A stretch of 64,000 bases of DNA from a bacterium (GTDB lineage: Bacteria > Patescibacteriota > Minisyncoccia > Phycocordibacterales > UBA6899): NCBI GenBank assembly GCA_043756865.1, contig JAYUQG010000024.1, forward strand, positions 91,259 through 155,258, written 5' to 3'. Below, piece after piece: positions 20,170 to 62,733 of the stretch (the stretch's first letter is position 1; every line of letters starts with the position of its first letter). The notes below the pieces were generated by a model that was not told the origin of the DNA, searched no databases, and saw only the letters and a program-made list of their open reading frames with translations. Made by a program: the position numbers and the translations under genes.

Positions 20170-20260
20170 GCAACACTCCAAGGAACACTGTCCTCATTCA
20201 ACCAAGTTTACAAAAGGAGTCAACCCGAGATAAAGGTTGCTATTTGCTATACTGGATTTC

Positions 20261-21145
20261 ATGAGTGACCAACCACACCCACATCAAACCCGTATTGCCG
20301 AAATTGAAAACGTAATGCTTACGGGAGATTTCTGGAGTGATAAAGAAAAGGCGCATGCGCTCATTAAGGAGCTTCAGGATTTAAAGACTGAAGTCGAAGG
20401 GGGAGGAAAATATGACAAGGCAAATGCGATTATCACCATCTTCTCTGGCGCCGGTGGCGACGACTCCGAAGATTTCTCCGCAATGTTGGTGCGCATGTAT
20501 TTCAAATACTGCGAACGCAAAGGTTGGGGATACGATGTACTGCACGCCCACGACAATGACCATGGGGGATATCGCAATATCACATTTGAGGTAGTGGGCA
20601 AAGCATCATACGGTGAACTCAAGAATGAATCCGGTGTGCATCGACTGGTGCGCATCTCGCCGTTTAATTCAAATGCAAAACGACACACCTCCTTCTCAAT
20701 GGTCGAGGTCATACCGAAATTCAAAAAAGGTGAAATTGAAGCACTTCCAGAAGCAGAAGTGCGTTTCGAGTACTCGCGCTCTGGTGGCGCAGGTGGGCAG
20801 AACGTAAACAAGCGCGAGACCGCAGTGCGTGCCGTGCATGAGCCAACAGGACTTGCCGTACATGTGTCTGCCGAGCGCTCGCAGCTCCAAAACAAAGAGC
20901 GCGCACTCGAGATTCTCGCTGCGAAGGTTTTTCATTTGCGCGAATCACTCACTCAGGCGGAAAAAGAAAAGATGTATGTATCCAAAACCACAAAGGTGGA
21001 ATGGGGCAATCAGATACGCTCATATGTCCTTCATCCCTACAAGATGGTAAAGGATCATCGCACCGATGTAGAGACATCGAAGGTTGATGACGTACTTCTG
21101 CACGGGGAGCTCGATGAGTTTATTGAGGCCGAGCGAGGGTTGTAG
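20261..21145 (+). CDS. prfB: Peptide chain release factor 2
   Basis: SPF motif (VRISPFNSNAKRHTSF), GGQ motif (SGGAGGQNVNKRETAV) and FSGAGG region. Short N-terminus. No CTTTGAC frameshift site seen. Confidence 0.85.
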   Translation: MSDQPHPHQTRIAEIENVMLTGDFWSDKEKAHALIKELQDLKTEVEGGGKYDKANAIITIFSGAGGDDSEDFSAMLVRMYFKYCERKGWGYDVLHAHDNDHGGYRNITFEVVGKASYGELKNESGVHRLVRISPFNSNAKRHTSFSMVEVIPKFKKGEIEALPEAEVRFEYSRSGGAGGQNVNKRETAVRAVHEPTGLAVHVSAERSQLQNKERALEILAAKVFHLRESLTQAEKEKMYVSKTTKVEWGNQIRSYVLHPYKMVKDHRTDVETSKVDDVLLHGELDEFIEAERGL

Positions 21146-21246: not shown

Positions 21247-22158
21247 ATGAAGCACGTGGAAATGCTCAATCGATATTTTGATCCGCTCTCCGTACGAGCA
21301 AGCATCATCCATGAAAATTGGAGCCAAACGCCTTCTCGGAGTTTCGCTCATTTGGTTCGCCGCATTCAAAATGGGTTTGCGCGCATCCTTGATGACGAGT
21401 CACAGCATGCACCGTTTTTGATTTCTGAAGCACTTTACGAGCGCGACGAGAATGGCGAGGAATACGAGGTCGGTCTACTACCTAAGCGCACCGGGGGAGT
21501 GAAGCGTGTACTCACACCCACTGAGGCAATCGAAGGCCGTAAGTCATACGACACAAATAAATGGCGCTTCCATTATGGCGATGACTTGTTACCCCATCTC
21601 GCGGGTCAGACAGAGGTGCTGCGCGCACATCGCGATTTTCTTTCGGCATGCCGCATTATGAACAATCGTGGTGCATATCTCGCCACGCAGCTTGCTCGTG
21701 CATTTGACCAGTGTGGGTACCCTGGTAATCTGGAAGCGAAGTTTGCAAAAGGAAAAGCATTCACGCGTGTGTTGCGCTATGAGCAACCGCAAGGAAATGC
21801 TCCAGACGCGGGACTCCACCGCGACCGGTCTGCACTGACTTTTCACTGGTACTCCTCACACTCGGGACTCGTACTGTTTAACCAGGCGGGCAATCCGATG
21901 CAAGGAAACGAGACCGACCCCCGTGCAGTCATGACGTTTCCGGGAACTAAATTCTGGGCAATGACTCGAGGGAGGTATGGCAAAGGAACCATTCATGGTG
22001 TGCGCGACAACCGTCGTGATTTGCAAGCTGCGACAACAAATCAGGCGCGCTACGCAATTGTGACCTTTGTGCACTCAATGCTCGACCCCGACGACGTATT
22101 GTTTATGCGCGAACACCTACCTGAACTCCGCATCGACCAAGGTGCATACCGTATCTAA
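21247..22158 (+). CDS. 2OG-Fe(II) oxygenase superfamily-like protein (isopenicillin N synthase-like fold)
   Basis: LHRDRSALTFHW (HxD) .. GLVLF .. KGTIHGVRD..RYAIVTF, consistent with an HxD...H...RxS facial triad. Confidence 0.45.
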   Translation: MKHVEMLNRYFDPLSVRASIIHENWSQTPSRSFAHLVRRIQNGFARILDDESQHAPFLISEALYERDENGEEYEVGLLPKRTGGVKRVLTPTEAIEGRKSYDTNKWRFHYGDDLLPHLAGQTEVLRAHRDFLSACRIMNNRGAYLATQLARAFDQCGYPGNLEAKFAKGKAFTRVLRYEQPQGNAPDAGLHRDRSALTFHWYSSHSGLVLFNQAGNPMQGNETDPRAVMTFPGTKFWAMTRGRYGKGTIHGVRDNRRDLQAATTNQARYAIVTFVHSMLDPDDVLFMREHLPELRIDQGAYRI

Positions 22159-22200: not shown

Positions 22201-22260
22201 ACACATATCCCATTGGAGATTCTTTTCCTTCGTGTGTGAAAAAGCTATACTAGAGCAACG

Positions 22261-22938
22261 ATGATTTATTTCGATAATGTCACCAAGCTGTACTCCGACC
22301 ACGCAGCACTTTCCGATGTGACGTTTGGAATTCAAACGGGGGAGTTCGTCTCTATCGTGGGGCATTCTGGCGCCGGCAAGACTACTATGCTTCGTCTGCT
22401 GATGGTGGAAGACAAGCCGACAAGTGGGGCGATTTTTTTTGAATCTACAAATGTGCACCGTATCAAGTCTTCCAGCGTGCCAGAGTATCGACGCAGAATT
22501 GGGACGGTTTTTCAGGATTTCCGCTTGCTTCCAAATAAGACCGCTTATGAAAACATCGCCTTTGCCATGGAAGCTGCGGGACGCCCCGACGAGGAGATTC
22601 ACTCCGATGTTCCTCAAGTACTCGAACTTGTCGACTTATCATCGAAGGCACTGCATTTTCCTCACGAACTTTCAGGCGGTGAAAAACAGCGCGTCGCTAT
22701 CGCGCGCGCGATCATAAGCCAGCCTGATGTGTTGATAGCTGACGAGCCGACAGGAAACCTTGATCCCGTGAATACATACGACATCATCCAGATACTCAAA
22801 AAGATAAACGACATGGGAACGACGATTATTTTGACGACACACAATAAGGGCATTATTGATGCATTGAAACGACGGGTGATTACGATGGAGCATGGAAAGA
22901 TTATCCGTGACGACCAGCACGGCAAGTATATTCTCTAG
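22261..22938 (+). CDS. ftsE: Cell division ATP-binding protein FtsE (ABC ATPase)
   Basis: Walker [13 protein letters not shown] signature [14 protein letters not shown], Walker [13 protein letters not shown]. 225 aa. Confidence 0.9.
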
Positions 22939-22976
22939 TATTTGGGCGCACTACTCGCCCTTCCTTTGGCAAATTT

Positions 22977-23036
22977 GGAGGACGTATCACTCATACGCCC
23001 TCGCAAATATTGCCGCAGTCCAGGACTTCGTACTGC
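22977..23036. repeat. 54-nt intergenic repeat, copy C
   Basis: ggaggacgtatcactcatacgccctcgcaaatattgccgcagtccaggacttcgtactgc matches copy B at 784-839. Confidence 0.6.
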
Positions 23037-23221
23037 GACCAATTTTTATTAGCGGTATCCGCCTTAGAAAAATGAAGTACTCTTGTGGTGCATCCCAAAT
23101 ATTAGAGAATACACGAGTTCTTGCGCCTCGTAATGCGCTGAGAATATTAGAGAATATGCGTGACCGTGATTTTGGTGTGCTATATTTTGGATACATGGAA
23201 CAAGAAAACAGAGTCCAACAC

Positions 23222-24394
23222 ATGAAGCAAAACGGCTCAAATATTTTCCTTGGAATTGTAGCGATACTCACGGGGGTATTCGCATTGCTTGTTGGTTTCG
23301 GCCTCATTCAAACTGACGGGAATGACAATGATGTTCCTCTCGGGATTGCGCGCATTACAGGAGGGATCTTTTTTGTTGCAGGAGTGATGGCGCTTGGAAT
23401 AGGAAAGTTTCCCCCACGTTTATACAACATACTGGGTGCAGTCCTCATGACCCTTTTTTCTTTTATAGCGGGATGGGTGGCATTCGGACCCGGCAACAGA
23501 GTGTTTGGTGGTGCTGGACCAATGTTGGGACGCATGGTTTTTGGATTTTCGGCATTTATTTGTGTTTATATGGCTATAGTGGCATGGAAGCGAGTTTTTA
23601 TGAGCGAAGTAAATGAGGGGAATAAAACCATAGTTATTGATAAGCCTAAAGGATTTTTTACTCTGTTTTTATTTTTATTTCCGTTTATGGTTTGGCCTTT
23701 TGTTGTGTTTTTCTTTGTTCAATCTGACGGGTCGTGGAAGTTCCCCACACTTGATGTCCTGCCGACAACCTCGTCGACAATGCAGCAACATGAAGAATTA
23801 TTAAACCGACAAGGATTCACCCTCCACACTGCGGAAAAGAATGGTACACATATATTCGACGGTGCCATTATTGTCGCGTTTGACAAACAAACAGGGGCGA
23901 TCGTGGGCGAAGCGATTATCGACATGGATGGTAATGCACAATTTATCCTACCGTACGGACATTATGAGTTTCGTCCGCATCCTCTTAAGGAAGATAAAGT
24001 TGTTGGCAGTCTTGATTTTGATATGTTTGCCACAAAACTACAACCAACCATACTGTATCTTTCCGAGATAGGCCCACATGGGTTCGGAACACCACTAAAG
24101 AGTTGCGAAGAAAAAAAGGATGTTCTTGCTGTGGCTGTCGAAAATAAGAATTACTGCGATGATGATGGGGACTGTAAATTTCTGAATACTTATTTTGGCT
24201 GCCCGTATCTTGTAAACAGACATGCTGATCTTGAGATATTTAAGGATCGTGATGAAGATGTTTTAAAATCTTGTCCGACTATTGTGGATATGTTGTGTCC
24301 TCTTTCTTCTCAAAATCTGAGGTGTGAGAAACATTCTTGTGTTTCAGGTTCTCGGGGAAATGGGGAAAGTCAAACAATTGACAATGCTATATAA
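23222..24394 (+). CDS. Hypothetical multi-pass membrane protein with a Cys-rich C-terminal domain (AT-rich gene)
   Basis: Start taken at MKQNGSNIFLGIVAIL, after the repeat. Four to five TM helices, then a domain with eight or more Cys. Noticeably AT-rich. Inserted between ftsE and ftsX. Confidence 0.5.
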   Translation: MKQNGSNIFLGIVAILTGVFALLVGFGLIQTDGNDNDVPLGIARITGGIFFVAGVMALGIGKFPPRLYNILGAVLMTLFSFIAGWVAFGPGNRVFGGAGPMLGRMVFGFSAFICVYMAIVAWKRVFMSEVNEGNKTIVIDKPKGFFTLFLFLFPFMVWPFVVFFFVQSDGSWKFPTLDVLPTTSSTMQQHEELLNRQGFTLHTAEKNGTHIFDGAIIVAFDKQTGAIVGEAIIDMDGNAQFILPYGHYEFRPHPLKEDKVVGSLDFDMFATKLQPTILYLSEIGPHGFGTPLKSCEEKKDVLAVAVENKNYCDDDGDCKFLNTYFGCPYLVNRHADLEIFKDRDEDVLKSCPTIVDMLCPLSSQNLRCEKHSCVSGSRGNGESQTIDNAI

Positions 24395-24406
24395 AAGTGA
24401 TATAAT
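24378..24406 (+). promoter_or_regulatory. Consensus sigma70-type promoter (TTGACA, 17-nt spacer with TG, TATAAT)
   Basis: ttgaca at 24378-24383, a 17-nt spacer ending in tg, then tataat at 24401-24406. Sits about 65 nt upstream of the 24474 ORF. Confidence 0.6.
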
Positions 24407-24473
24407 ATATATGGCACAGTGAATTCTAGTTACGTCCTGTACGTTGGTATTGTCATTCCACTAGGAGAGACAC

Positions 24474-24776
24474 ATGTTGGAAACCGTTCCCGTCCCGTTG
24501 GTCCGCTTCGACCTGAAATCGGAATCCCCATTCGACCTCACCGAGGCTATCTCGGTGACGGAGTGGAAGGGCTTCGCCGTCGGTATGACCGTGGACGTCA
24601 ACATTGCGCGCGGTACGGCACTCGGCGAGATTCACACGATTTGGCTCGGCGCCAAGTCGCACAACGACGCACACGTGGTCGCTTTCGAAGTTCACGTCGA
24701 CAACATACAGCATTACCTCACCCAGCGCGGCGTGCATCACGTCGTCGTCGATGACCTCGCACACCGCCTTCACTGA
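24474..24776 (+). CDS. Small hypothetical protein (GC-rich gene of likely foreign origin)
   Basis: RBS aggagag 6 nt upstream. 100-aa protein-like sequence. Local GC is about 60%, against a flanking AT-rich gene. Followed by a terminator. The overlapping Arg-rich ORF 24419..24754 is rejected. Confidence 0.55.
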   Translation: MLETVPVPLVRFDLKSESPFDLTEAISVTEWKGFAVGMTVDVNIARGTALGEIHTIWLGAKSHNDAHVVAFEVHVDNIQHYLTQRGVHHVVVDDLAHRLH

Positions 24777-24795
24777 CTCCCTTCGAGGAGTCAAC

Positions 24796-24829
24796 ACACC
24801 GTAGCTATTGCTACGGTGTACTTTTTTCT
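24796..24829 (+). terminator. Rho-independent terminator
   Basis: acaccgtagctattgctacggtgtactttttt. Confidence 0.75.
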
Positions 24830-25251
24830 AACAGGCTTTTAAGAAAAACATCCGCGCGCTGCGGATGTCGATATTAGGAGTTCGGACCTTGTGGGCGCTT
24901 GAGTGCTATCCACCGGACGCGGTGGGTGATGTCAGTTCGAGCGGGGCCTTCTGCGTAGAACCTGCTATTTCGGGCACCGTAAACGGCCATGACTGCATGC
25001 GCGTCACCTGTACATTTCACCATGAGAAATGCGGGAATGACACTTGGTGCTTGTTCCGGCCACTTGAGCCATTCGATTACTTCGCCAATCATATGCACCT
25101 CTGTGAGAACGCTCGTATGACCATAACACACGAACTTTTAAAGACAAGTATGTGCGTAACTAGGCGTGAATTACTGAATTTCACTAATAATATCTAACGT
25201 CTTTCTATCCCCATTTCGCATTCTCTGCATATCATGGGAAAATAAAGGCTT

Positions 25252-26181
25252 ATGGGAGTTTTCACGAGTACACGCAGGATTATTAAGGCTGGCTTCATTA
25301 ATTTTTGGAGAAATGCGGTGGTTTCGCTTTCTGCGATTTTTGTAATGACCGTCGCACTCTTTGTCGTTGGGGCAACTATCTTGTCTTCAGCGTTTCTCGA
25401 CTCGGCTCTGCGGGAAATCAAAAGCAAGGTTGATATCAACGTCTATTTCAATCCTGACGCTGAGGAATCAGACATCTTCGTGATGAAACGCTCGCTAGAA
25501 GACCTGCCCGAAGTTGCGGCTGTTGAGTATATCGCACGTGAAACCGCTATCGAGAATTTCAAGCAGCGTCATGAGAACGACTATCTCATGAAACAGGCGC
25601 TCGACGAGCTCATTGATAATCCGCTCGGTGCAATTTTGAACATCAAAGCGAAAGACACTTCACAGTACGAGGCTATCGCCAAGCACATTAGGGCAGAACA
25701 AGAAGACGCAGGTCCAAGTGGGAACCTTATCTACAACGTCAACTACGGCAAAAACAAAATTGTTATCGACAAACTGACCGCTATCACAAGGGGTGTCGAG
25801 CGTGTCTCCTTGGCGGTACTCCTACTCCTTATTGTCATTGCTATTGTGATTACGTTTAACACTATTCGCCTCGCTATTTATGTATCGCGCGAAGAAATTG
25901 CAATCATGAGACTCGTTGGTGCGAACAACATGTTTGTCCGAGGGCCATTTGTTGTTGAGGGAATCATGTATGGCATGGTTTCCGCAATTGTGGCCACTGC
26001 GCTCTTCTATCCTGTTACGGTGTGGTTGCGCGATTCCACTGAGAATTTCTACGGAGGGATAGACCTCTTTGTCTACTACATTACAAACTTCAATCAAATA
26101 TTTCTCGTACTGCTTTTTAGTGGAATGTTCCTTGGAGCGGTGTCAGCATTTCTGGCGGTCAGAAGGTATTTAAAAGTATAA
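25252..26181 (+). CDS. ftsX: Cell division permease-like protein FtsX
   Basis: N-terminal TM, large periplasmic loop and C-terminal three-TM FtsX-family region. Partner of ftsE but separated from it by 2.3 kb. Confidence 0.8.
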   Translation: MGVFTSTRRIIKAGFINFWRNAVVSLSAIFVMTVALFVVGATILSSAFLDSALREIKSKVDINVYFNPDAEESDIFVMKRSLEDLPEVAAVEYIARETAIENFKQRHENDYLMKQALDELIDNPLGAILNIKAKDTSQYEAIAKHIRAEQEDAGPSGNLIYNVNYGKNKIVIDKLTAITRGVERVSLAVLLLLIVIAIVITFNTIRLAIYVSREEIAIMRLVGANNMFVRGPFVVEGIMYGMVSAIVATALFYPVTVWLRDSTENFYGGIDLFVYYITNFNQIFLVLLFSGMFLGAVSAFLAVRRYLKV

Positions 26182-26284: not shown

Positions 26285-27931
26285 ATGGCAAAAAATCATA
26301 AATACATCTTTGTTGTGGGTGGTGTGATGAGCGGGGTGGGGAAGGGTGTGGCCACTTCATCTATCGCGCTTTTGTTGCAATCACGCGGGTTCAAAATTTC
26401 GCCAATTAAAATTGACCCGTATCTAAACGTGGACGCGGGCACGATGAATCCAACCGAGCACGGTGAGGTGTTTGTATTAAATTCCGGGCTTGAGACTGAC
26501 CAAGACATGGGCTCGTACGAGCGCTTTCTCGGAAGGGACCTGAATACTGAGAACTATATGACGGGAGGATTGGTGTATAAGACCGTGATTGACCGTGAGC
26601 GTGCACTTGGCTATGGCGGAAAATGTGTCGAGCCTGTGCCACATATTCCTGAGGAAGTTATTCGTCGCATTAAAGCGGCAGGAGAGAAAGATAAGTCCGA
26701 TATCACCATTGTGGAAATCGGAGGGACACTCGGCGAGTACCAGAGCGTCATGTTTATCGAAGCGGCACGTACGCTTCATCTCGATAATCCCGATGACGTC
26801 CTCTTTGTACTCGTCTCCTATCTTCCTGTTCCGGGAAAGTTGGGTGAAATGAAGACGAAACCCACACAGTATGCGGTACGCACGATGAATTCGTACGGTG
26901 TGCAGCCTGATATTATCATTGCACGCGGTGAGGTTGCACTCGACCAAAAGCGCAAAGAGAAGATTGCCGCATCTTCGGGTATGCGGGTGGAGCAGGTTAT
27001 TGCTGCCCCTGACGTGGACAGTGTCTATGACGTACCGCTGAACTTCGAAGACGACTACATGGCGGACATTGTCATGAAGATTTTGAAACTCAAAGCGAAG
27101 CGCCCCGTCAATCTTCTGCCATGGAAAGGTTTTGTCCGTAAGGTGAACAACGCAAAGGGTGAAGTCCGTATTGGTATGGTGGGAAAGTATTTTGCAACGG
27201 GAGATTTCGTACTTGCCGACTCTTACCTTTCCGTTATCGAGGCACTGAAATACGCCGCATACCATGCAGGGAAGAAACCCGTGATTGATTGGATTGCCGC
27301 CACGGACTTTGAGGGTAGCGGGGCATCAAAAAATCTTGCGAAGCTCGCAAAGTATGACGGCATTGTCATTCCGGGAGGATTTGGGTCACGCGGTGTGGAG
27401 GGAAAGCTTAAAGTTATAGCATATGCACGCACGCACAAAATTCCGTATTTCGGACTGTGCTATGGCATGCAGCTTATGGTCGTCGAATACGCACGCAATG
27501 TGCTTGGCCTCAAGGGCGCAATCACTACCGAAATTGACCCGAAGACAAAGTATCCTGTAATAGACGTGATGCCCGACCAAAAAGCAAAGCTTGCAGAGGG
27601 GGATTATGGAGGATCTATGCGCCTCGGCACATACCCTGCATATCTGAAGGAAAAGACAGTTGCGCGATTGGCATATAAATCCGAAATGGTGCACGAGCGT
27701 CACCGCCATCGCTATGAGGTGAACCCTGAGTATGTGTCGCAGCTTGAAGCGGCAGGACTCGTCTTTTCAGGCATATCGCCCGATCGTGCACTTATGGAAA
27801 TTGCGGAACTTCCAAAATCAAAGCACCCCTTCTTTTTGGGAACGCAGTTTCACCCCGAGTTTACGGCCCGCCCACTTACCTCGCACCCACTTTTCGACGC
27901 GTTCATCAAGGCAGCGGCAAAAAGAAAGTAG
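26285..27931 (+). CDS. pyrG: CTP synthase
   Basis: N-terminal synthetase motif GGVMSGVGKGVATSSIALLL. C-terminal class I glutamine amidotransferase domain (GLCYGMQ, H..E). 548 aa. Confidence 0.95.
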   Translation: MAKNHKYIFVVGGVMSGVGKGVATSSIALLLQSRGFKISPIKIDPYLNVDAGTMNPTEHGEVFVLNSGLETDQDMGSYERFLGRDLNTENYMTGGLVYKTVIDRERALGYGGKCVEPVPHIPEEVIRRIKAAGEKDKSDITIVEIGGTLGEYQSVMFIEAARTLHLDNPDDVLFVLVSYLPVPGKLGEMKTKPTQYAVRTMNSYGVQPDIIIARGEVALDQKRKEKIAASSGMRVEQVIAAPDVDSVYDVPLNFEDDYMADIVMKILKLKAKRPVNLLPWKGFVRKVNNAKGEVRIGMVGKYFATGDFVLADSYLSVIEALKYAAYHAGKKPVIDWIAATDFEGSGASKNLAKLAKYDGIVIPGGFGSRGVEGKLKVIAYARTHKIPYFGLCYGMQLMVVEYARNVLGLKGAITTEIDPKTKYPVIDVMPDQKAKLAEGDYGGSMRLGTYPAYLKEKTVARLAYKSEMVHERHRHRYEVNPEYVSQLEAAGLVFSGISPDRALMEIAELPKSKHPFFLGTQFHPEFTARPLTSHPLFDAFIKAAAKRK

Positions 27932-32034: not shown

Positions 32035-32043
32035 CTATCCCGA

Positions 32044-32158
32044 GTTATGCACACCCACCCCTTGCGTAATTCTACACAGGGTGTATATTTCATTCATCGA
32101 GACGATACGTCGTCTCAATTTAACAAAGCCTGTCACCCGACGGGCTTTTTTACGCCTC
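32044..32158 (+). repeat. Direct repeat R (~115 bp) holding a promoter-like element, an 18-nt hairpin and an intrinsic terminator; left copy
   Basis: About 95% identical to 33721-33837. ttgcgt, 16 nt, (tgt)atattt. Hairpin gagacgatacgtcgtctc. Terminator agcctgtcacccgacgggctttttt. Confidence 0.7.
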
Positions 32159-32178
32159 GATAAAGTATTAAGTATTTC

Positions 32179-32226
32179 AGCGCGAAGCGCAGAGATAGTG
32201 AGTCCTCGAGCGACAACGCCAAATAG
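32179..32226 (+). repeat. Direct repeat X (48 nt), left copy
   Basis: agcgcgaagcgcagagatagtgagtcctcgagcgacaacgccaaatag matches 33666-33712 at roughly 80%. Confidence 0.6.
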
Positions 32227-32262: not shown

Positions 32263-33591
32263 TTAAGCTACTTCGTCGATTTTCTCAAGCGGGCGATCAT
32301 TGATTGCACGTTCAAGTGAACTCAAACGTTTGTAGATTGAGAGCATTTCGACAATAGTCGGCCAATTGAGGACCAAATATTGAAAAGAACTTTCTACTCT
32401 TCCGAATGCGCGCACAATCTGCTGCATGACTCCAAGGGTGAATCCTGCAAGTATCGCCTCTTTGGAAAGCAGGGTTGGTGCGAGTGCGATGTAGGGAACG
32501 AGTGCACCCGCCTGTAGATAGCTATACCGCACCATGTTGAAGTACATGTAGTGAAAGTACATCCGAAAGTAGTTTGTTCTCACGTGACCAAACAGCTCAC
32601 GCAATGTCTTCGGTTGTGCCCGAGTTTCGTCCTCTTCGCCGAATACTAGCTCCTTGCGGTAAGCGTGCTCCACTCGTTGGTTGTGGAATTTCAATGTCGG
32701 CAGATAATAACCCGTCAGTGCGAGCACAATCGTACCGAAAACAGACCAGCAGACTGCAATAATCACCAATCCATGGGCGATCGGTCCGATGACGGGTATC
32801 TCCGAGACAAACTTCGTCGAGAGCATCCAAAGAATCGGCAAGAACGCAATGAGCGTCATCACCGCATCAAGCAGTCCCGCACCCAATCCTTCCATGATGT
32901 CTGCAAAACGCATCGTGTCGTCTTGAATACGTTGGGACGCTCCTTCGATGTGACGGACTTTGCTCCATTTCCCAGTATAGTACTCGTTCATCGCGGTGCG
33001 CCACCGGAAGTTGTAGTGCTGGATGAAATAGTTTCCCAGCGTTCTCACAATCACAAACACCGCTGCAATGGTGAAAAAGGTGGCCAGACGTCCGTAGTAC
33101 TCAGTATTTTCGATAGTTCCGGGGTTCGCAAACATGGTTTGAATCATGTTGTAAAACCCACCGAACCATTCGTTAATCATGACATCGAGTTGCACCTGAA
33201 ACCACGTGAAAAAGATAATCACAGCGGAACCAAGAAGCGACCACTTCAGCCATTTGTGTGAACTACAGAAGTACCAGCAGGCAATAAATATTCCGTAGCA
33301 AGGGATGAGGAATTGGTATGCCCAAAAAGTCACCGCGCTTCCGAGCGCACTTATCTGGGATTGCACCAACTTTACTCGCTCGGGGTCTGTCTTTGCACCG
33401 AATCGCGCCGCTTCCTTTTGTAGCGTTTCGAGTAATCCGTAGTCGAGTTGAGCAAAGCCGAACCATTGACCAACGGAATACATTTGACCTGTTTGCTCTC
33501 CTAATGTGAACCAAAACACCAAGCAGGCAAGTGCCCATATCACAAATGAGCCAAAGAAGAGGAGCGGCCTCGGAAAGAAGGAATTAAACAT
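32263..33591 (-). CDS. sbmA: SbmA/BacA-family peptide (microcin/antimicrobial peptide) transporter
   Basis: 442 aa, collinear with enterobacterial SbmA along its whole length by eye: MF.SFFP, RWRTAMNEYY, HIEGA.QR.Q.DTMRFA, NQRVE.AYRKELV.GE.D.TRA, FHYMYFN, SIYKRL. Confidence 0.85.
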   Translation of the reverse strand: MFNSFFPRPLLFFGSFVIWALACLVFWFTLGEQTGQMYSVGQWFGFAQLDYGLLETLQKEAARFGAKTDPERVKLVQSQISALGSAVTFWAYQFLIPCYGIFIACWYFCSSHKWLKWSLLGSAVIIFFTWFQVQLDVMINEWFGGFYNMIQTMFANPGTIENTEYYGRLATFFTIAAVFVIVRTLGNYFIQHYNFRWRTAMNEYYTGKWSKVRHIEGASQRIQDDTMRFADIMEGLGAGLLDAVMTLIAFLPILWMLSTKFVSEIPVIGPIAHGLVIIAVCWSVFGTIVLALTGYYLPTLKFHNQRVEHAYRKELVFGEEDETRAQPKTLRELFGHVRTNYFRMYFHYMYFNMVRYSYLQAGALVPYIALAPTLLSKEAILAGFTLGVMQQIVRAFGRVESSFQYLVLNWPTIVEMLSIYKRLSSLERAINDRPLEKIDEVA

Positions 33592-33665
33592 TGGGGGACC
33601 CCTTTTGTGTCGAGAACTTTGTCTGTCAAAAGTCTAAAGGAAGGCGCAAATATAGCAACTGCATT

Positions 33666-33712
33666 AAGCGCGAAGCACCCGGATAGTGAGTCCGCGAGCG
33701 GTAACGTCAAAT
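33666..33712 (+). repeat. Direct repeat X', right copy
   Basis: agcgcgaagcacccggatagtgagtccgcgagcggtaacgtcaaatag. Confidence 0.6.
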
Positions 33713-33720
33713 AGCCCCCA

Positions 33721-33837
33721 AGTTATCCACACCCACCCCTTGCGTAATTCTACACAGGGTGTATATTTCATTCATCGAGACGATACGTCGTCTCAATTTA
33801 ACAAAGCCCGTCTCTGACGGGCTTTTTTACGTCTCCA
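33721..33837 (+). repeat. Direct repeat R', right copy (promoter-like element, hairpin, terminator)
   Basis: Near-identical to 32044-32158, including gagacgatacgtcgtctc and agcccgtctctgacgggcttttttacg. Confidence 0.7.
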
Positions 33838-61479: not shown

Positions 61480-62733
61480 TCAGTCTTTCCCGACTTCGCG
61501 AAGCATCGGTGCTTCGGCTGGGCCAGTCGGGGTGGGGGTGCCACCACGGCGAGAGACAACTTCGTCTTCGATTCTGTTCTTGGCTTCGATATTGTCGTAG
61601 ATGTAGCCGAAACGCTTCAGGAAGGCGTTGAAGACATCATGCAGGATGCGCAACGTGATGATCTTGCGGATTGCGCGCAGGCCCATGCTGAAAGGCCAGA
61701 AGAAGACCCACAGGAACAGTTGCCCCTTGTGTTCGTTCTTCGTCGTGGGGCTACGCTTCGTTGCCTTGCCGATGATGTAGTCGCTGAACTCGGGAACGAG
61801 GACGGTTTTCTCGGGCGTCGAACGACCAAGTTGCTGCGACCAGTACTTCAGGTCTTCGTCGGTGAAGGGGGCGTCTTCGGCTCCCTCTGCTTTCGTGAAC
61901 GCAGCCCTGAGTCTGTTTTCTTCGTCAGAGATGGCTTTCAGACCATACTGCACATCTTGCGAGTTGAAACTGCCCATCGAGACAGCCTTGGTGGGCAAGG
62001 GGTCATCTTTCGACAGTCCCGTACCCTTGCGGAAGTCCGTGCGCAGCTTGACCAGTGCGTCCATGCTCTCCTTGAGTTGGAGCGCCAGTTGCGTCTTGGT
62101 CTCGGTGAAGAGTTCGTGCAGGAAGGCACTGAAGTCTTTCCAGCGGTACACGCTCCAGCCGATGCCGATGGCCACCCAGATGGCGATTGCAGGCGCTGCC
62201 TTCCATGACATCAGCGTTTCCCAGATGGGAAGACCACCGTAGTTCAGGAATGCGAGCATGCCGACGAAAATCAGGGTTGTGGCGAACTCGTGCGTGTCGA
62301 TGCGCTCGCGCTGTCCGCGCTTGCTTTCACGCCAGAACCACCCGATACGCGAGTCGGAATATTCCGACAAGATACCGATTGCAGCCATGGGAATGAAGAG
62401 CACGAGGGCAAACGCGAGCCAGCCGATGGTGCCCATGCCGACCAAGAGCCAGCCACCCGCAAAGAGTGCGCCGAATGCAGCGGTGACACCAACGAACAGG
62501 CCTTTGAGAAAGCCGGTGTTTTCAGATTGCGCTGTGGTTGTTTCCGCGGCGACGCGGACGACGGTTTCAGGTGCGCGGGAGGGTGTGGACTGCGCAGCAG
62601 TACCCGATGGTGTTTGCGCATTTGCCACGACGGTAGCCGTTGCAACAGTACTTGCTGTCGTCGCGTCAGCGGGCGGTTTGAAGACAAACCATCCTGCTAT
62701 CGCAAGAACTATTACGAAAAACAAAGTCTTCAT
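61480..62733 (-). CDS. Hypothetical membrane protein (GC-rich gene)
   Basis: 417 aa. N-terminal signal/TM, then an Ala/Thr-rich tract, several TM helices and a soluble C-terminus. The overlapping + strand ORFs are read as GC-rich artefacts. Confidence 0.55.
   Translation of the reverse strand: MKTLFFVIVLAIAGWFVFKPPADATTASTVATATVVANAQTPSGTAAQSTPSRAPETVVRVAAETTTAQSENTGFLKGLFVGVTAAFGALFAGGWLLVGMGTIGWLAFALVLFIPMAAIGILSEYSDSRIGWFWRESKRGQRERIDTHEFATTLIFVGMLAFLNYGGLPIWETLMSWKAAPAIAIWVAIGIGWSVYRWKDFSAFLHELFTETKTQLALQLKESMDALVKLRTDFRKGTGLSKDDPLPTKAVSMGSFNSQDVQYGLKAISDEENRLRAAFTKAEGAEDAPFTDEDLKYWSQQLGRSTPEKTVLVPEFSDYIIGKATKRSPTTKNEHKGQLFLWVFFWPFSMGLRAIRKIITLRILHDVFNAFLKRFGYIYDNIEAKNRIEDEVVSRRGGTPTPTGPAEAPMLREVGKD

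What the first reader, a model, noticed from the sequence alone, without database searches (positions are those of the whole stretch)
22938..25252. ftsE and ftsX are separated by a 2.3 kb insertion carrying two compositionally contrasting genes and a perfect consensus promoter
ftsE and ftsX are normally adjacent or overlapping. Here they are split by several elements. First is a 54-nt repeat copy. Next is an AT-rich gene for a multi-TM protein with a Cys-rich extracytoplasmic domain (23222-24394). Then comes a textbook TTGACA-17(TG)-TATAAT promoter embedded in that gene's 3' end (24378-24406). After that is a GC-rich (about 60%) 100-aa gene with a strong RBS (24474-24776), then a terminator. 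The segment ends with about 450 bp of ambiguous sequence holding overlapping Cys/His-rich ORFs on both strands. The mixed composition points to acquired DNA. The consensus promoter implies high constitutive expression of the small protein.
Basis: partly seen in the sequence, partly recalled or inferred. Interest (0 to 1): 0.6.

Follow-up and report, generated by a model that had tools for sequence, protein, structure and literature searches.

The report
Variable gene slot splitting ftsE and ftsX
In this uncultivated Patescibacteria (Lloydbacteria-like) genome, ftsE and ftsX each appear to have their own promoter, and the gap between them varies across the lineage; here it holds one orphan membrane-protein gene plus an older, conserved pair of small genes of unknown function, which is a well-dissected but fairly ordinary accessory-gene hotspot.

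Summary
ftsE (22261-22938) and ftsX (25252-26181) are 2313 nt apart. The gap holds a TM/Cys-rich ORF, a 12/12 consensus extended promoter, a GC-rich 100-aa gene and a terminator.

The "ambiguous 450 bp" is a real 72-aa gene on the minus strand (24874-25092), with its own terminator, SD and promoter.

The "one acquired insertion" reading is only partly right, because the gap is nested:
- **Small-gene pair:** the 100-aa(+)/72-aa(-) pair, its consensus promoter and both terminators are conserved, in the same place, in the nearest relatives (FtsX 93% identical). Third codon positions there are about 50% different.
- **GC3:** the 100-aa gene keeps GC3 of 0.77-0.83 in all four lineages.
- **Membrane-protein gene:** it has no homologue in about 5.8 billion proteins and is absent from one relative lineage.
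- **Other relatives:** eleven Lloydbacteria-like genomes (FtsX 77-86%) have gaps of 183-2137 nt with unrelated contents. More distant Parcubacteria have ftsE and ftsX overlapping or up to about 230 nt apart.

All 14 relatives keep an invariant TGnGAAAAT 6-9 nt before the ftsX ATG. The same promoter-at-the-start-codon geometry recurs across the window. My inference is that ftsX is a self-promoted, leaderless unit, which makes the junction tolerant of insertions.

The function of the small proteins remains unknown.

The parts
22261..22938 (+). ftsE. A -10-like TATACT lies at 22246-22251, 9 nt before the ATG.
   Evidence: TIGR02673 at 270.9 bits, above its cut-off. Pfam ABC_tran. Upstream sequence read.
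22980..23030 (.). Repeat R1 (51 nt). Its core is a hairpin with a GTAT-nnCTC-ATAC top. A second copy lies at 784-834.
   Evidence: 88% identical copy. The same hairpin top, with different complementary lower stems, follows ftsE in L003 and L034.
23028..23103 (.). Repeat R2 (about 76 nt). It contains a small hairpin (GCGG/CCGC).
   Evidence: blastn finds copies in L010 (two, one inverted), L022 and L034. The alignment shows a compensatory change in the hairpin, GTGG/CCAC.
23178..23186 (+). Extended -10 (TGcTATATT), 8 nt before ATG 23195. Proposed promoter of the membrane-protein gene, giving a leaderless mRNA.
   Evidence: Pattern scan. The same spacing peaks genome-wide. This is inference; no TSS data exist.
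23195..24394 (+). Orphan membrane-protein gene, 399 aa from ATG 23195 (390 aa from 23222). It has 5 TM segments and a C-terminal domain with 8 Cys, predicted to face outward.
   Evidence: Only a self hit among 5.8 billion proteins. No Pfam, PHROG, PADLOC, NCBIfam or PDB match. Topology. Absent in L003-5. No paralogue.
24378..24406 (+). Full-consensus sigma-70 promoter, TTGACA-17-TATAAT with TG, for the 100-aa gene. It overlaps the last codons of the upstream ORF.
   Evidence: 12 of 12. Unique in the window, 0.02 expected. Both hexamers and the TG are unchanged in L003-5 and L007, and in the fetched loci the pattern occurs only upstream of this gene's orthologues.
24451..24472 (+). Hairpin in the roughly 60-nt 5' UTR. 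Invariant TGTCATTCC pairs with the SD stretch GGAGAGACA.
   Evidence: Present in the MFE and centroid folds of all four orthologous leaders. Both arms are invariant, so covariation cannot be tested.
24474..24776 (+). 100-aa gene (p100). The protein is acidic (pI 5.8), has 9 His and is predicted to be beta-rich.
   Evidence: Orthologues at 60-69% identity. Third-position-dominated substitutions. GC3 0.77-0.83 in all four lineages. Distant family members P0008 and P0011: hhalign 98.2%, E = 5e-14.
24775..24829 (+). Post-stop hairpin (24775-24792), then an intrinsic terminator (stem 24796-24819 plus a T run).
   Evidence: Terminator scan. Both hairpins keep pairing in relatives through compensatory changes.
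24847..24869 (-). Intrinsic terminator of the 72-aa gene.
   Evidence: Terminator scan. Compensatory change in relatives, CATCCGC/GCGGATG versus CATCCAC/GTGGATG.
24874..25092 (-). 72-aa gene (p72), basic (pI 9.5). This resolves the 'ambiguous' region.
   Evidence: Orthologues at 79-90% identity in L003, L006 and L007. Codon-position differences 12/8/35.
25096..25128 (-). Expression signals of p72: SD GAGGTG (25096-25101) and extended -10 TGtTATGGT (25120-25128).
   Evidence: Conserved in window, L006 and L007 in alignment A5. Sequence read. This is inference.
25215..25243 (+). Proposed ftsX promoter: -35-like TTCGCA, a 17-nt spacer, then TGgGAAAAT, ending 8 nt before the ATG.
   Evidence: TGnGAAAAT is invariant in 14 relatives whose upstream DNA is otherwise unalignable. 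The leaderless geometry is common in the genome.
25252..26181 (+). ftsX
   Evidence: Pfam FtsX_ECD and FtsX, both above cut-off. 77-94% identical orthologues.

Best explanation
In this Lloydbacteria-like Patescibacteria lineage, ftsE and ftsX are not an operon.

**Uncoupled units (inferred).** Like many genes in the genome, each of the two has a -10 element 6-9 nt before its start codon (an extended TGn type for ftsX). Each is therefore probably a separate, leaderless transcription unit. Because ftsX does not depend on read-through from ftsE, DNA can be gained, lost or swapped at the junction without harming cell division. The junction has become a variable accessory-gene slot.

**Two layers of different age (shown).**
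- *Older layer, shared with the nearest relatives.* It consists of two convergent, independently promoted and terminated small genes. p100 has the strongest promoter match in the window, an atypical 60-nt leader, and an SD predicted to sit in a conserved hairpin. p72 lies on the opposite strand.
- *Younger layer, private to this lineage.* It is an orphan gene for a 5-TM protein with a Cys-rich domain predicted to face outward, embedded among short interspersed repeats.

**Role of the terminators (inferred).** The back-to-back terminators insulate the cargo and would block ftsE read-through. That makes the ftsX promoter necessary.

**Shown:** the anatomy, the conservation pattern, the coding status and the composition. 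**Inferred:** promoter activity, leaderless transcripts and SD occlusion. The biochemical role of p100 and p72 is unknown. My best guess is that p100 is an abundant, translationally gated small cytoplasmic protein, not a cell-division factor.
For: **Gap length against relatedness.**
- FtsX at 65% identity or less: the gap runs from an overlap to about 230 nt.
- FtsX at 77-86% (11 genomes): gaps of 183-2137 nt with unrelated ORFs and repeats.
- None of these 11 carries p100, p72 or the TM gene.

**ftsX promoter.**
- TGnGAAAAT is invariant 6-9 nt before the ftsX ATG in 14 relatives, with a -35-like TT(n)GC 17 nt upstream.
- Extended -10 motifs 5-9 nt before an ORF-opening start codon: 27 found against 11 expected.
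- The spacing histogram peaks sharply at 6-9 nt, both in the window and in 133 kb of relatives.
- prfB, ftsE and the TM gene show the same geometry.

**Older layer.**
- p100, p72 and ftsX are syntenic in L006 and L007.
- ftsE, the promoter, p100 and p72 are syntenic in L003-5.
- The promoter is unchanged.
- Both terminators are kept through compensatory changes.
- Both genes are under purifying selection.
- p100 keeps GC3 of 0.77-0.83, although 154 of 310 ftsX third positions differ between the window and L006.

**Younger layer.**
- The TM gene is an orphan.
- In L003-5 it is replaced by 167 nt.

**Assembly.** An independent assembly shows the same arrangement.
Against: - There are no transcript data. 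The promoters, leaderless starts and terminators are sequence inferences.
- The -10 of ftsX is GAAAAT, not TAnnnT. The conserved 9-mer could instead be a translation signal.
- The frame of the TM gene stays open for 101 codons upstream of ATG 23195, back into ftsE (P about 0.008). It may therefore start upstream and be coupled to ftsE.
- Only one relative lineage (L003-5) shows the left half, so loss there cannot be told apart from gain here.
- No mobility genes or target-site duplications explain how the cargo moves.
- Conservation of p100 and p72 beside ftsX could reflect a functional link that I cannot test.
Confidence: 0.6

Rival explanations
1. The whole 2.3 kb is one recently acquired foreign island. 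Its mixed GC would reflect its donors.
For: - p100 has a GC3 z-score of +4.0 and the TM gene -2.0.
- Both gene families are absent from the eleven FtsX-80% relatives.
- Distant p100 relatives sit in unrelated genomes, one with 58% GC.
Against: - The right half is syntenic in four diverged lineages.
- Its GC3 is unchanged despite near-saturated synonymous divergence.
- The left half is absent in L003-5, so the two halves have different histories.
- There is no integrase, transposase, tRNA site or flanking target duplication in the gap ORFs.
Confidence: 0.1
2. The cargo genes are lineage-specific partners or regulators of FtsEX. The outward-facing domain of the TM protein would serve as the FtsX-ECD partner, and p100 and p72 would be cytoplasmic modulators of FtsE. 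Their position would then be functional.
For: - They are stably placed next to ftsX in four lineages.
- In other bacteria, FtsX ECDs bind lineage-specific partners such as EnvC, PcsB, CwlO or RipC (established knowledge).
- The slot next to ftsE holds membrane or exported proteins in the window, L034, L010 and L022.
Against: - The slot contents are mutually unrelated across relatives.
- Several relatives have only 183-336 nt there, with no ORF of 60 aa or more.
- The prfB-ftsE junction is just as variable.
- The cargo has its own promoters and is insulated by terminators.
Confidence: 0.12
3. p100 and p72 form a toxin-antitoxin-like, defence or anti-defence module.
For: - They are an acidic (pI 5.8) and basic (pI 9.5) small-protein pair.
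- They sit in a variable hotspot.
- The distant p100 homologue P0008 lies directly downstream of a Tad4-like gene. Tad4 is a phage anti-Thoeris protein. The match is Pfam PF25186, E = 1e-24, plus phrog_9822.
Against: - The genes are convergent, with separate promoters and terminators. They are not a bicistronic operon.
- There are no PADLOC, PHROG or Pfam hits.
- There are no relatives in IMG/VR or GenBank phages.
- p72 is absent beside the distant p100 homologues.
- The Tad4 adjacency is a single case.
Confidence: 0.1

Closest known systems
Canonical ftsEX (ftsYEX) operon of E. coli, B. subtilis and most bacteria
   Same: The same two genes are present in the same order: an FtsE ATPase (TIGR02673) and an FtsX permease with an ECD. 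The conserved backbone is prfB-ftsE-ftsX-pyrG.
   Different: The genes are 2.3 kb apart, with two intrinsic terminators between them. ftsX carries its own conserved promoter-like element at the start codon.
Accessory-gene hotspots between conserved core genes (variable islets)
   Same: The flanks are fixed core genes. The contents differ between relatives. Orphan genes and short interspersed repeats are present.
   Different: No integrase, tRNA site or recognisable defence cargo is present. The slot lies inside what is normally an operon. One part of the cargo is old and conserved.
Leaderless mRNAs from promoters placed at the start codon (as in Actinobacteria, Deinococcus and archaea)
   Same: The -10 element ends 6-9 nt before the ATG for many genes, including prfB, ftsE, ftsX and the TM gene.
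   Different: This rests on sequence geometry only. The papers I could search describe nothing like it for Patescibacteria. p100 is the exception, with a 60-nt leader and a strong SD.
SD-sequestering 5' UTR hairpins (RNA thermometers such as ROSE and fourU; translational gates)
   Same: An invariant anti-SD stretch (UGUCAUUCC) pairs with GGAGAGACA, with a 4-5 nt loop, a U-G pair and an internal mismatch.
   Different: There is no Rfam match and no covariation. The whole leader folds no better than shuffled sequence (z from -1.6 to +1.0). No temperature or ligand dependence is known.

Membership tests
FtsE (TIGR02673) | Score above the equivalog cut-off; ABC ATPase domain | tested here: met
   270.9 bits against a cut-off of 264.85. 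Pfam ABC_tran E = 6e-36.
FtsX | FtsX extracellular domain plus a C-terminal FtsX permease domain | tested here: met
   PF18075 at 53.1 bits and PF02687 at 43.7 bits, both above cut-off. The NCBIfam FtsX models score 192-204 bits, below their strict cut-offs of 225-255.
ftsEX operon | Adjacent or overlapping genes transcribed together | tested here: not met
   The gap is 2313 nt and holds two conserved intrinsic terminators. Co-transcription itself cannot be tested here.
Sigma-70 consensus / extended -10 promoter (for p100) | TTGACA, 17-nt spacer, TGnTATAAT | tested here: met
   12 of 12 plus TG. Unique in the window. Conserved in orthologous loci. Activity was not tested.
Leaderless transcription unit (ftsX, TM gene, ftsE, prfB) | TSS at or within a few nt of the start codon | not testable with these tools
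   Only the geometry is shown: a -10 element 6-9 nt before the ATG, enriched (27 against 11) and peaked.
Intrinsic terminators | GC-rich hairpin plus a T run, with pairing kept in relatives | tested here: met
   (compensatory T-A/C-G and G-C/A-T changes).
Genomic island or mobile element | Integrase or transposase, a tRNA or att site, direct-repeat flanks | tested here: not met
   No such ORF, domain or tRNA lies in 22939-25251. Only short interspersed repeats R1 and R2 are present.
Type II toxin-antitoxin | Co-directional two-gene operon with homology to known toxin or antitoxin families | tested here: not met
   The genes are convergent with separate signals. There are no Pfam or PADLOC hits.
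Phage anti-defence proteins (Tad4 neighbourhood lead) | Homology of p100 or p72 to a known anti-defence family, or presence in phage genomes | tested here: not met
   No PHROG or Pfam hit. No viral relatives. The only link is adjacency of the distant homologue P0008 to a Tad4-like gene.
DUF551 (recalled resemblance for p72) | Match to Pfam PF04448 | tested here: not met
   No match in any of the four orthologues at E up to 10.
CsrA/RsmA (recalled resemblance for the p100 family) | Profile-profile similarity to CsrA | tested here: not met
   hhalign probability 0.1%.
Rfam RNA families in the gap | Covariance-model match | tested here: not met
   No match at E up to 1 in 22800-25400. None at gathering score in the gaps of relatives.

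The most novel reading that the evidence does not exclude
p100 may be a very abundant, translationally gated, His-rich small protein peculiar to one episymbiont sub-lineage. It belongs to an undescribed family whose distant member sits beside a Tad4-like anti-Thoeris gene. It could be a new kind of anti-defence or host-manipulation factor, or a metal-binding stress protein. Separately, promoter-at-start-codon (leaderless) expression may be the default gene architecture in these Patescibacteria, which would explain why their operons fragment.
Probability: 0.1. Interest if true: 0.6.

Novelty: new member of a known kind. Interest (0 to 1): 0.33.

Why it matters
The finding shows how a normally tight cell-division operon can be pulled apart without visible cost. 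Each gene appears to carry its own promoter at its start codon, so the junction behaves like any other intergenic spacer and collects lineage-specific cargo.

For Patescibacteria biology it yields three testable items:
- a probable genome-wide leaderless expression mode;
- two undescribed small-protein families, one behind the strongest promoter match in 64 kb;
- a slot that repeatedly holds variable membrane or surface-protein genes, which are candidates for host interaction in episymbionts.

None of this changes current understanding of FtsEX.

Tried and rejected
**Structure prediction**
- AlphaFold2 of p100 (4 sequences) gave pLDDT 37. p72 (2 sequences) gave pLDDT 46.6.
- Both models are unusable, so I ran no fold search.

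**Homologue searches for p100 and p72**
- Word-index search of 5.8 billion proteins found only orthologues.
- A profile HMM search of 1.8 billion representatives found only two credible distant p100 homologues, P0008 and P0011. Two further hits to very long multi-stretch proteins were not followed up.
- Two metagenome-contig scans found nothing.
- Three IMG/VR scans gave only one hit, which is spurious: an 'RPAFLMVK' motif inside a 1516-aa protein.
- tblastn against GenBank phages gave E of 4 or worse.
- PDB sequence and profile searches found nothing.

**Recalled resemblances and internal comparisons**
- DUF551 for p72 was rejected.
- CsrA for p100 was rejected.
- p72 is unrelated to the L016/L034 small proteins and to the p100 family.

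**Other checks**
- Rfam found nothing in the gap.
- The whole p100 leader is not more stable than shuffles.
- The ATCnAAAATnTTAnAGAAT motif is not repeated elsewhere in the window.
- I could not calibrate codon bias against highly expressed genes, because the ORFs I scanned included no ribosomal-protein or EF genes.
- A literature search found nothing on split ftsEX or leaderless expression in Patescibacteria.

Full report
**What is there**

The window comes from a Patescibacteria (Parcubacteria) genome. Its closest database relatives include Candidatus Lloydbacteria MAGs, with FtsX 77-86% identical.

- **Backbone.** The local backbone is prfB (20237/20261-21145), a 303-aa weakly 2OG-Fe(II)-like gene, ftsE (22261-22938), ftsX (25252-26181) and pyrG (26285-27931).
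- **Gene identity.** ftsE passes the NCBIfam equivalog cut-off. ftsX has both Pfam FtsX domains.
- **Gap.** The two genes are separated by 2313 nt.
- **Assembly.** An independent Logan assembly contig of 17.5 kb carries the identical arrangement, so this is not an assembly artefact.

**Anatomy of the gap, left to right**

1. **Weak hairpin, 22944-22960**.
2. **Repeat R1, 22980-23030.**
   - It is 51 nt, with an 88% identical copy at 784-834.
   - Its core is a hairpin with a conserved top, GTAT-nnCTC-ATAC.
   - In L003 and L034 the same hairpin top follows ftsE with different, complementary lower stems.
3. **Repeat R2, 23028-23103.** Copies occur in the ftsE-ftsX gaps of L010, L022 and L034, and once inverted elsewhere in L010.
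4. **Extended -10, TGcTATATT, 23178-23186.** It lies 8 nt before ATG 23195.
5. **ORF ending at 24394.**
   - From ATG 23195 it encodes 399 aa.
   - It has five hydrophobic segments, loop charges that fit the positive-inside rule, and a 224-aa acidic C-terminal domain with 8 Cys predicted to face outward.
6. **Consensus promoter, 24378-24406.** TTGACA-17-TATAAT with TG. It overlaps the last codons of the upstream ORF.
7. **Leader of about 60 nt.** Invariant TGTCATTCC (24451-24459) is predicted to pair with the SD stretch GGAGAGACA (24464-24472).
8. **p100 gene, 24474-24776.**
9. **Post-stop hairpin and plus-strand terminator, 24775-24829.**
10. **Minus-strand terminator, 24869-24847**.
11. **p72 gene on the minus strand, 24874-25092.** It has an SD (GAGGTG) and an extended -10 (TGtTATGGT) upstream.
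12. **ftsX promoter-like element.** A -35-like TTCGCA, a 17-nt spacer, then TGgGAAAAT at 25235-25243, ending 8 nt before the ftsX ATG.

**Are the small ORFs genes?**

Yes, both are.

- *p100.* Orthologues are 60-69% identical. Differences at codon positions 1/2/3 run from 15/16/30 to 26/21/36.
- *p72.* Orthologues are 79-90% identical. Differences are 12/8/35.

The coding frame there is on the minus strand, and gene callers called it independently on three other contigs.

**Comparison with relatives**

The history is nested.

- **Right half is old.**
  - L006 and L007 (FtsX 93.5% identical) carry p100(+), p72(-) and ftsX in the same order.
  - L003-5 are three contigs from different samples. 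They carry the ftsE 3' end (100% identical protein, 87% DNA), then about 360 nt, the same promoter, p100 and p72.
- **Left half is private to this lineage.** Compared with L003, window homology stops at 23032 and resumes exactly at the -35 hexamer, 24378. L003 has 167 nt of other repeat DNA where the window has 1345 nt that include the TM gene.
- **The TM gene is an orphan.** It has no homologue among about 5.8 billion proteins apart from its own record. It also has no paralogue in the window or in related loci.
- **Other Lloydbacteria-like genomes differ.**
  - None of the eleven (FtsX 77-86%) has p100, p72 or the TM gene.
  - Their ftsE-ftsX gaps are 183, 242, 274, 336, 440, 454, 606, 807, 986, 1421 and 2137 nt.
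  - Their contents are unrelated: a 62-68-aa TM protein in L010 and L022; a 302-aa membrane-anchored protein in L034; a different 67-73-aa minus-strand gene next to ftsX in L016 and L034 (BLASTP 7e-9); and a 131-aa minus-strand ORF in L022.
- **Distant Parcubacteria.** At FtsX 46-65% the gap runs from an overlap to about 230 nt.
- **The neighbouring junction also varies.** The prfB-ftsE junction ranges from 83 nt to about 3 kb.

**Composition**

- *p100.* It is a real outlier: GC 0.594, and GC3 0.772 is the highest of 68 ORFs (z = +4.0). It is also highest for both C/(C+T) and G/(G+A) at third positions.
- *TM gene.* GC3 0.368 (z = -2.0). Four other ORFs are as low or lower.
- *Persistence.* p100 GC3 is 0.77-0.83 in all four lineages, although 154 of 310 ftsX third positions differ between the window and L006.

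The bias is therefore maintained. It is not a fading mark of recent import. I could not link it to expression level, because the ORFs I scanned included no ribosomal-protein or EF genes.

**Promoters and the uncoupling of ftsX**

- **p100 promoter.**
  - The full-consensus match is the only one in 64 kb, even with one mismatch allowed (0.02 expected).
  - In about 330 kb of fetched loci it occurs only upstream of p100 orthologues, where both hexamers and the TG are unchanged.
- **Terminators.** The two terminators between p100 and p72 keep their pairing through compensatory changes. Read-through from ftsE into ftsX is therefore unlikely.
- **ftsX signal.** (A/G)TGnGAAAAT is invariant 6-9 nt before the ATG in all 14 aligned relatives, while the rest of the upstream DNA cannot be aligned.
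- **The geometry is general.**
  - TGn(T/G)AnnnT lies 5-9 nt before an ORF-opening start codon 27 times, against 11 expected.
  - For TGnTAnnnT, 18 of 21 ATGs at spacings of 6-9 nt open long ORFs, with almost none at other spacings.
  - The same peak appears in 133 kb from relatives.
  - prfB and the TM gene fit the extended -10 geometry; ftsE has a plain TATACT 9 nt before its ATG.

I infer that many genes here are leaderless, self-promoted units. This explains why splitting ftsEX is tolerated. p100 is the exception, with a long leader and a strong SD.

**Function of the cargo**

No known family matches the TM protein, p100 or p72.

- *Libraries searched.* Pfam, NCBIfam, PHROGs and PADLOC, the PDB and Rfam.
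- *Structure.* The AlphaFold2 models were too poor to use.
- *p100.* It is acidic (pI 5.8) with 9 His and a conserved RGVHHV...HRxH tail.
- *p72.* It is basic (pI 9.5).
- *Wider p100 family.*
  - A profile search of 1.8 billion representatives found two credible distant p100 relatives. Profile-profile comparison confirmed them at 98.2%, E = 5e-14.
  - P0008 (L036) also has a strong promoter and a long leader. It lies directly downstream of a Tad4-like gene (Pfam E = 1e-24). Tad4 is a phage inhibitor of the Thoeris ThsB protein.
  - P0011 (L037) is one of two tandem paralogues with Cys/His-rich C-terminal extensions.
- *Phage link.* No family member was found in viral collections.

This gives a weak lead toward anti-defence or metal binding, and nothing more.

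**Verdict**

The split is real, and the TM gene is either a lineage-specific addition here or was lost in L003-5. However, the promoter, p100 and p72 form an old, conserved arrangement in this sub-lineage.

The locus is best seen as a variable slot between two independently promoted core genes. It is a careful but fairly ordinary case of accessory-gene turnover. The side results are a probable leaderless expression mode in this clade and two uncharacterised small-protein families.

Noticed in passing
Whole window, e.g. 20261, 28191, 29253, 44179, 44578, 45483, 51262; also L009-L018, L022, L034: Extended -10 motifs (TGnTAnnnT) sit 6-9 nt before the start codons of many genes. In the window, 18 of 21 ATGs at that spacing open long ORFs. 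This points to widespread leaderless mRNAs in this Patescibacteria clade. The searchable literature describes nothing like it.
   Followed up: partly
window 21247-22158, and the prfB-ftsE junction in L009-L034: The prfB-ftsE junction also varies, from 83 nt to about 3 kb. Here it holds a 303-aa protein with a weak 2OG-Fe(II) oxygenase match (E = 5e-4). That protein is present at 36-46% identity in only four of the relatives.
   Followed up: partly
window 22892-23194: The reading frame of the TM gene stays open for 101 codons upstream of ATG 23195, across repeats R1 and R2 and into ftsE (P about 0.008 by shuffling). Gene callers disagree on the start: 495, 440 or 390-399 aa.
   Followed up: partly
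window 22968-23012 and 772-816; L003 260-304; L034 3907-3951: A hairpin with a conserved top, GTAT-nnCTC-ATAC, and different complementary lower stems in each lineage. It usually lies just downstream of ftsE. It may be a REP-like or terminator-like element.
   Followed up: partly
L036 2-535 and 810-1112: A Tad4-like (anti-Thoeris) gene lies immediately upstream of the distant p100 homologue P0008 (Pfam PF25186 E = 1e-24; phrog_9822). The contig also carries a string of 37-91-aa genes and tsaD. P0008 has a TTGACT-17-TATACT promoter with TG and a leader of about 95 nt.
   Followed up: partly
L037 5179-6117: Two tandem p100-family paralogues (145 and 160 aa) carry Cys/His-rich, zinc-ribbon-like C-terminal extensions. 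The genome has 58% GC.
   Followed up: no
L016 5664-5885 (-) and L034 5644-5847 (-): A different small protein family (67-73 aa, with a shared W.AV.YF..G.G...P...W.ELLK.T pattern) occupies the same minus-strand position next to ftsX in two relatives. It is unrelated to p72.
   Followed up: partly
L010 5382-5750, L022 4827-5180, L013 5579-5700: L010 and L022 share a 62-68-aa TM protein in the ftsE-ftsX gap. All three loci share a downstream stretch that stays conserved across ORF boundaries and may be a structured RNA. There is no Rfam match.
   Followed up: no
window 32039-32226 and 33664-33812: Direct repeats of 96 nt (97% identical) and 51 nt (82%) flank a minus-strand SbmA/BacA-like transporter gene at 32263-33591.
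   Followed up: no
window 61480-62733 (-): A 417-aa protein with a signal-peptide-like N-terminus and a Thr/Ala-rich start has the second-highest GC3 (0.70) and C-ending codon bias in the window. It has no Pfam match.
   Followed up: no
window 20237-21145: The prfB ORF is only 294-302 aa (PCRF plus RF-1 domains). An extended -10, TGCTATACT, lies 7 nt before ATG 20261. I did not examine whether an upstream frameshift segment exists.
   Followed up: no
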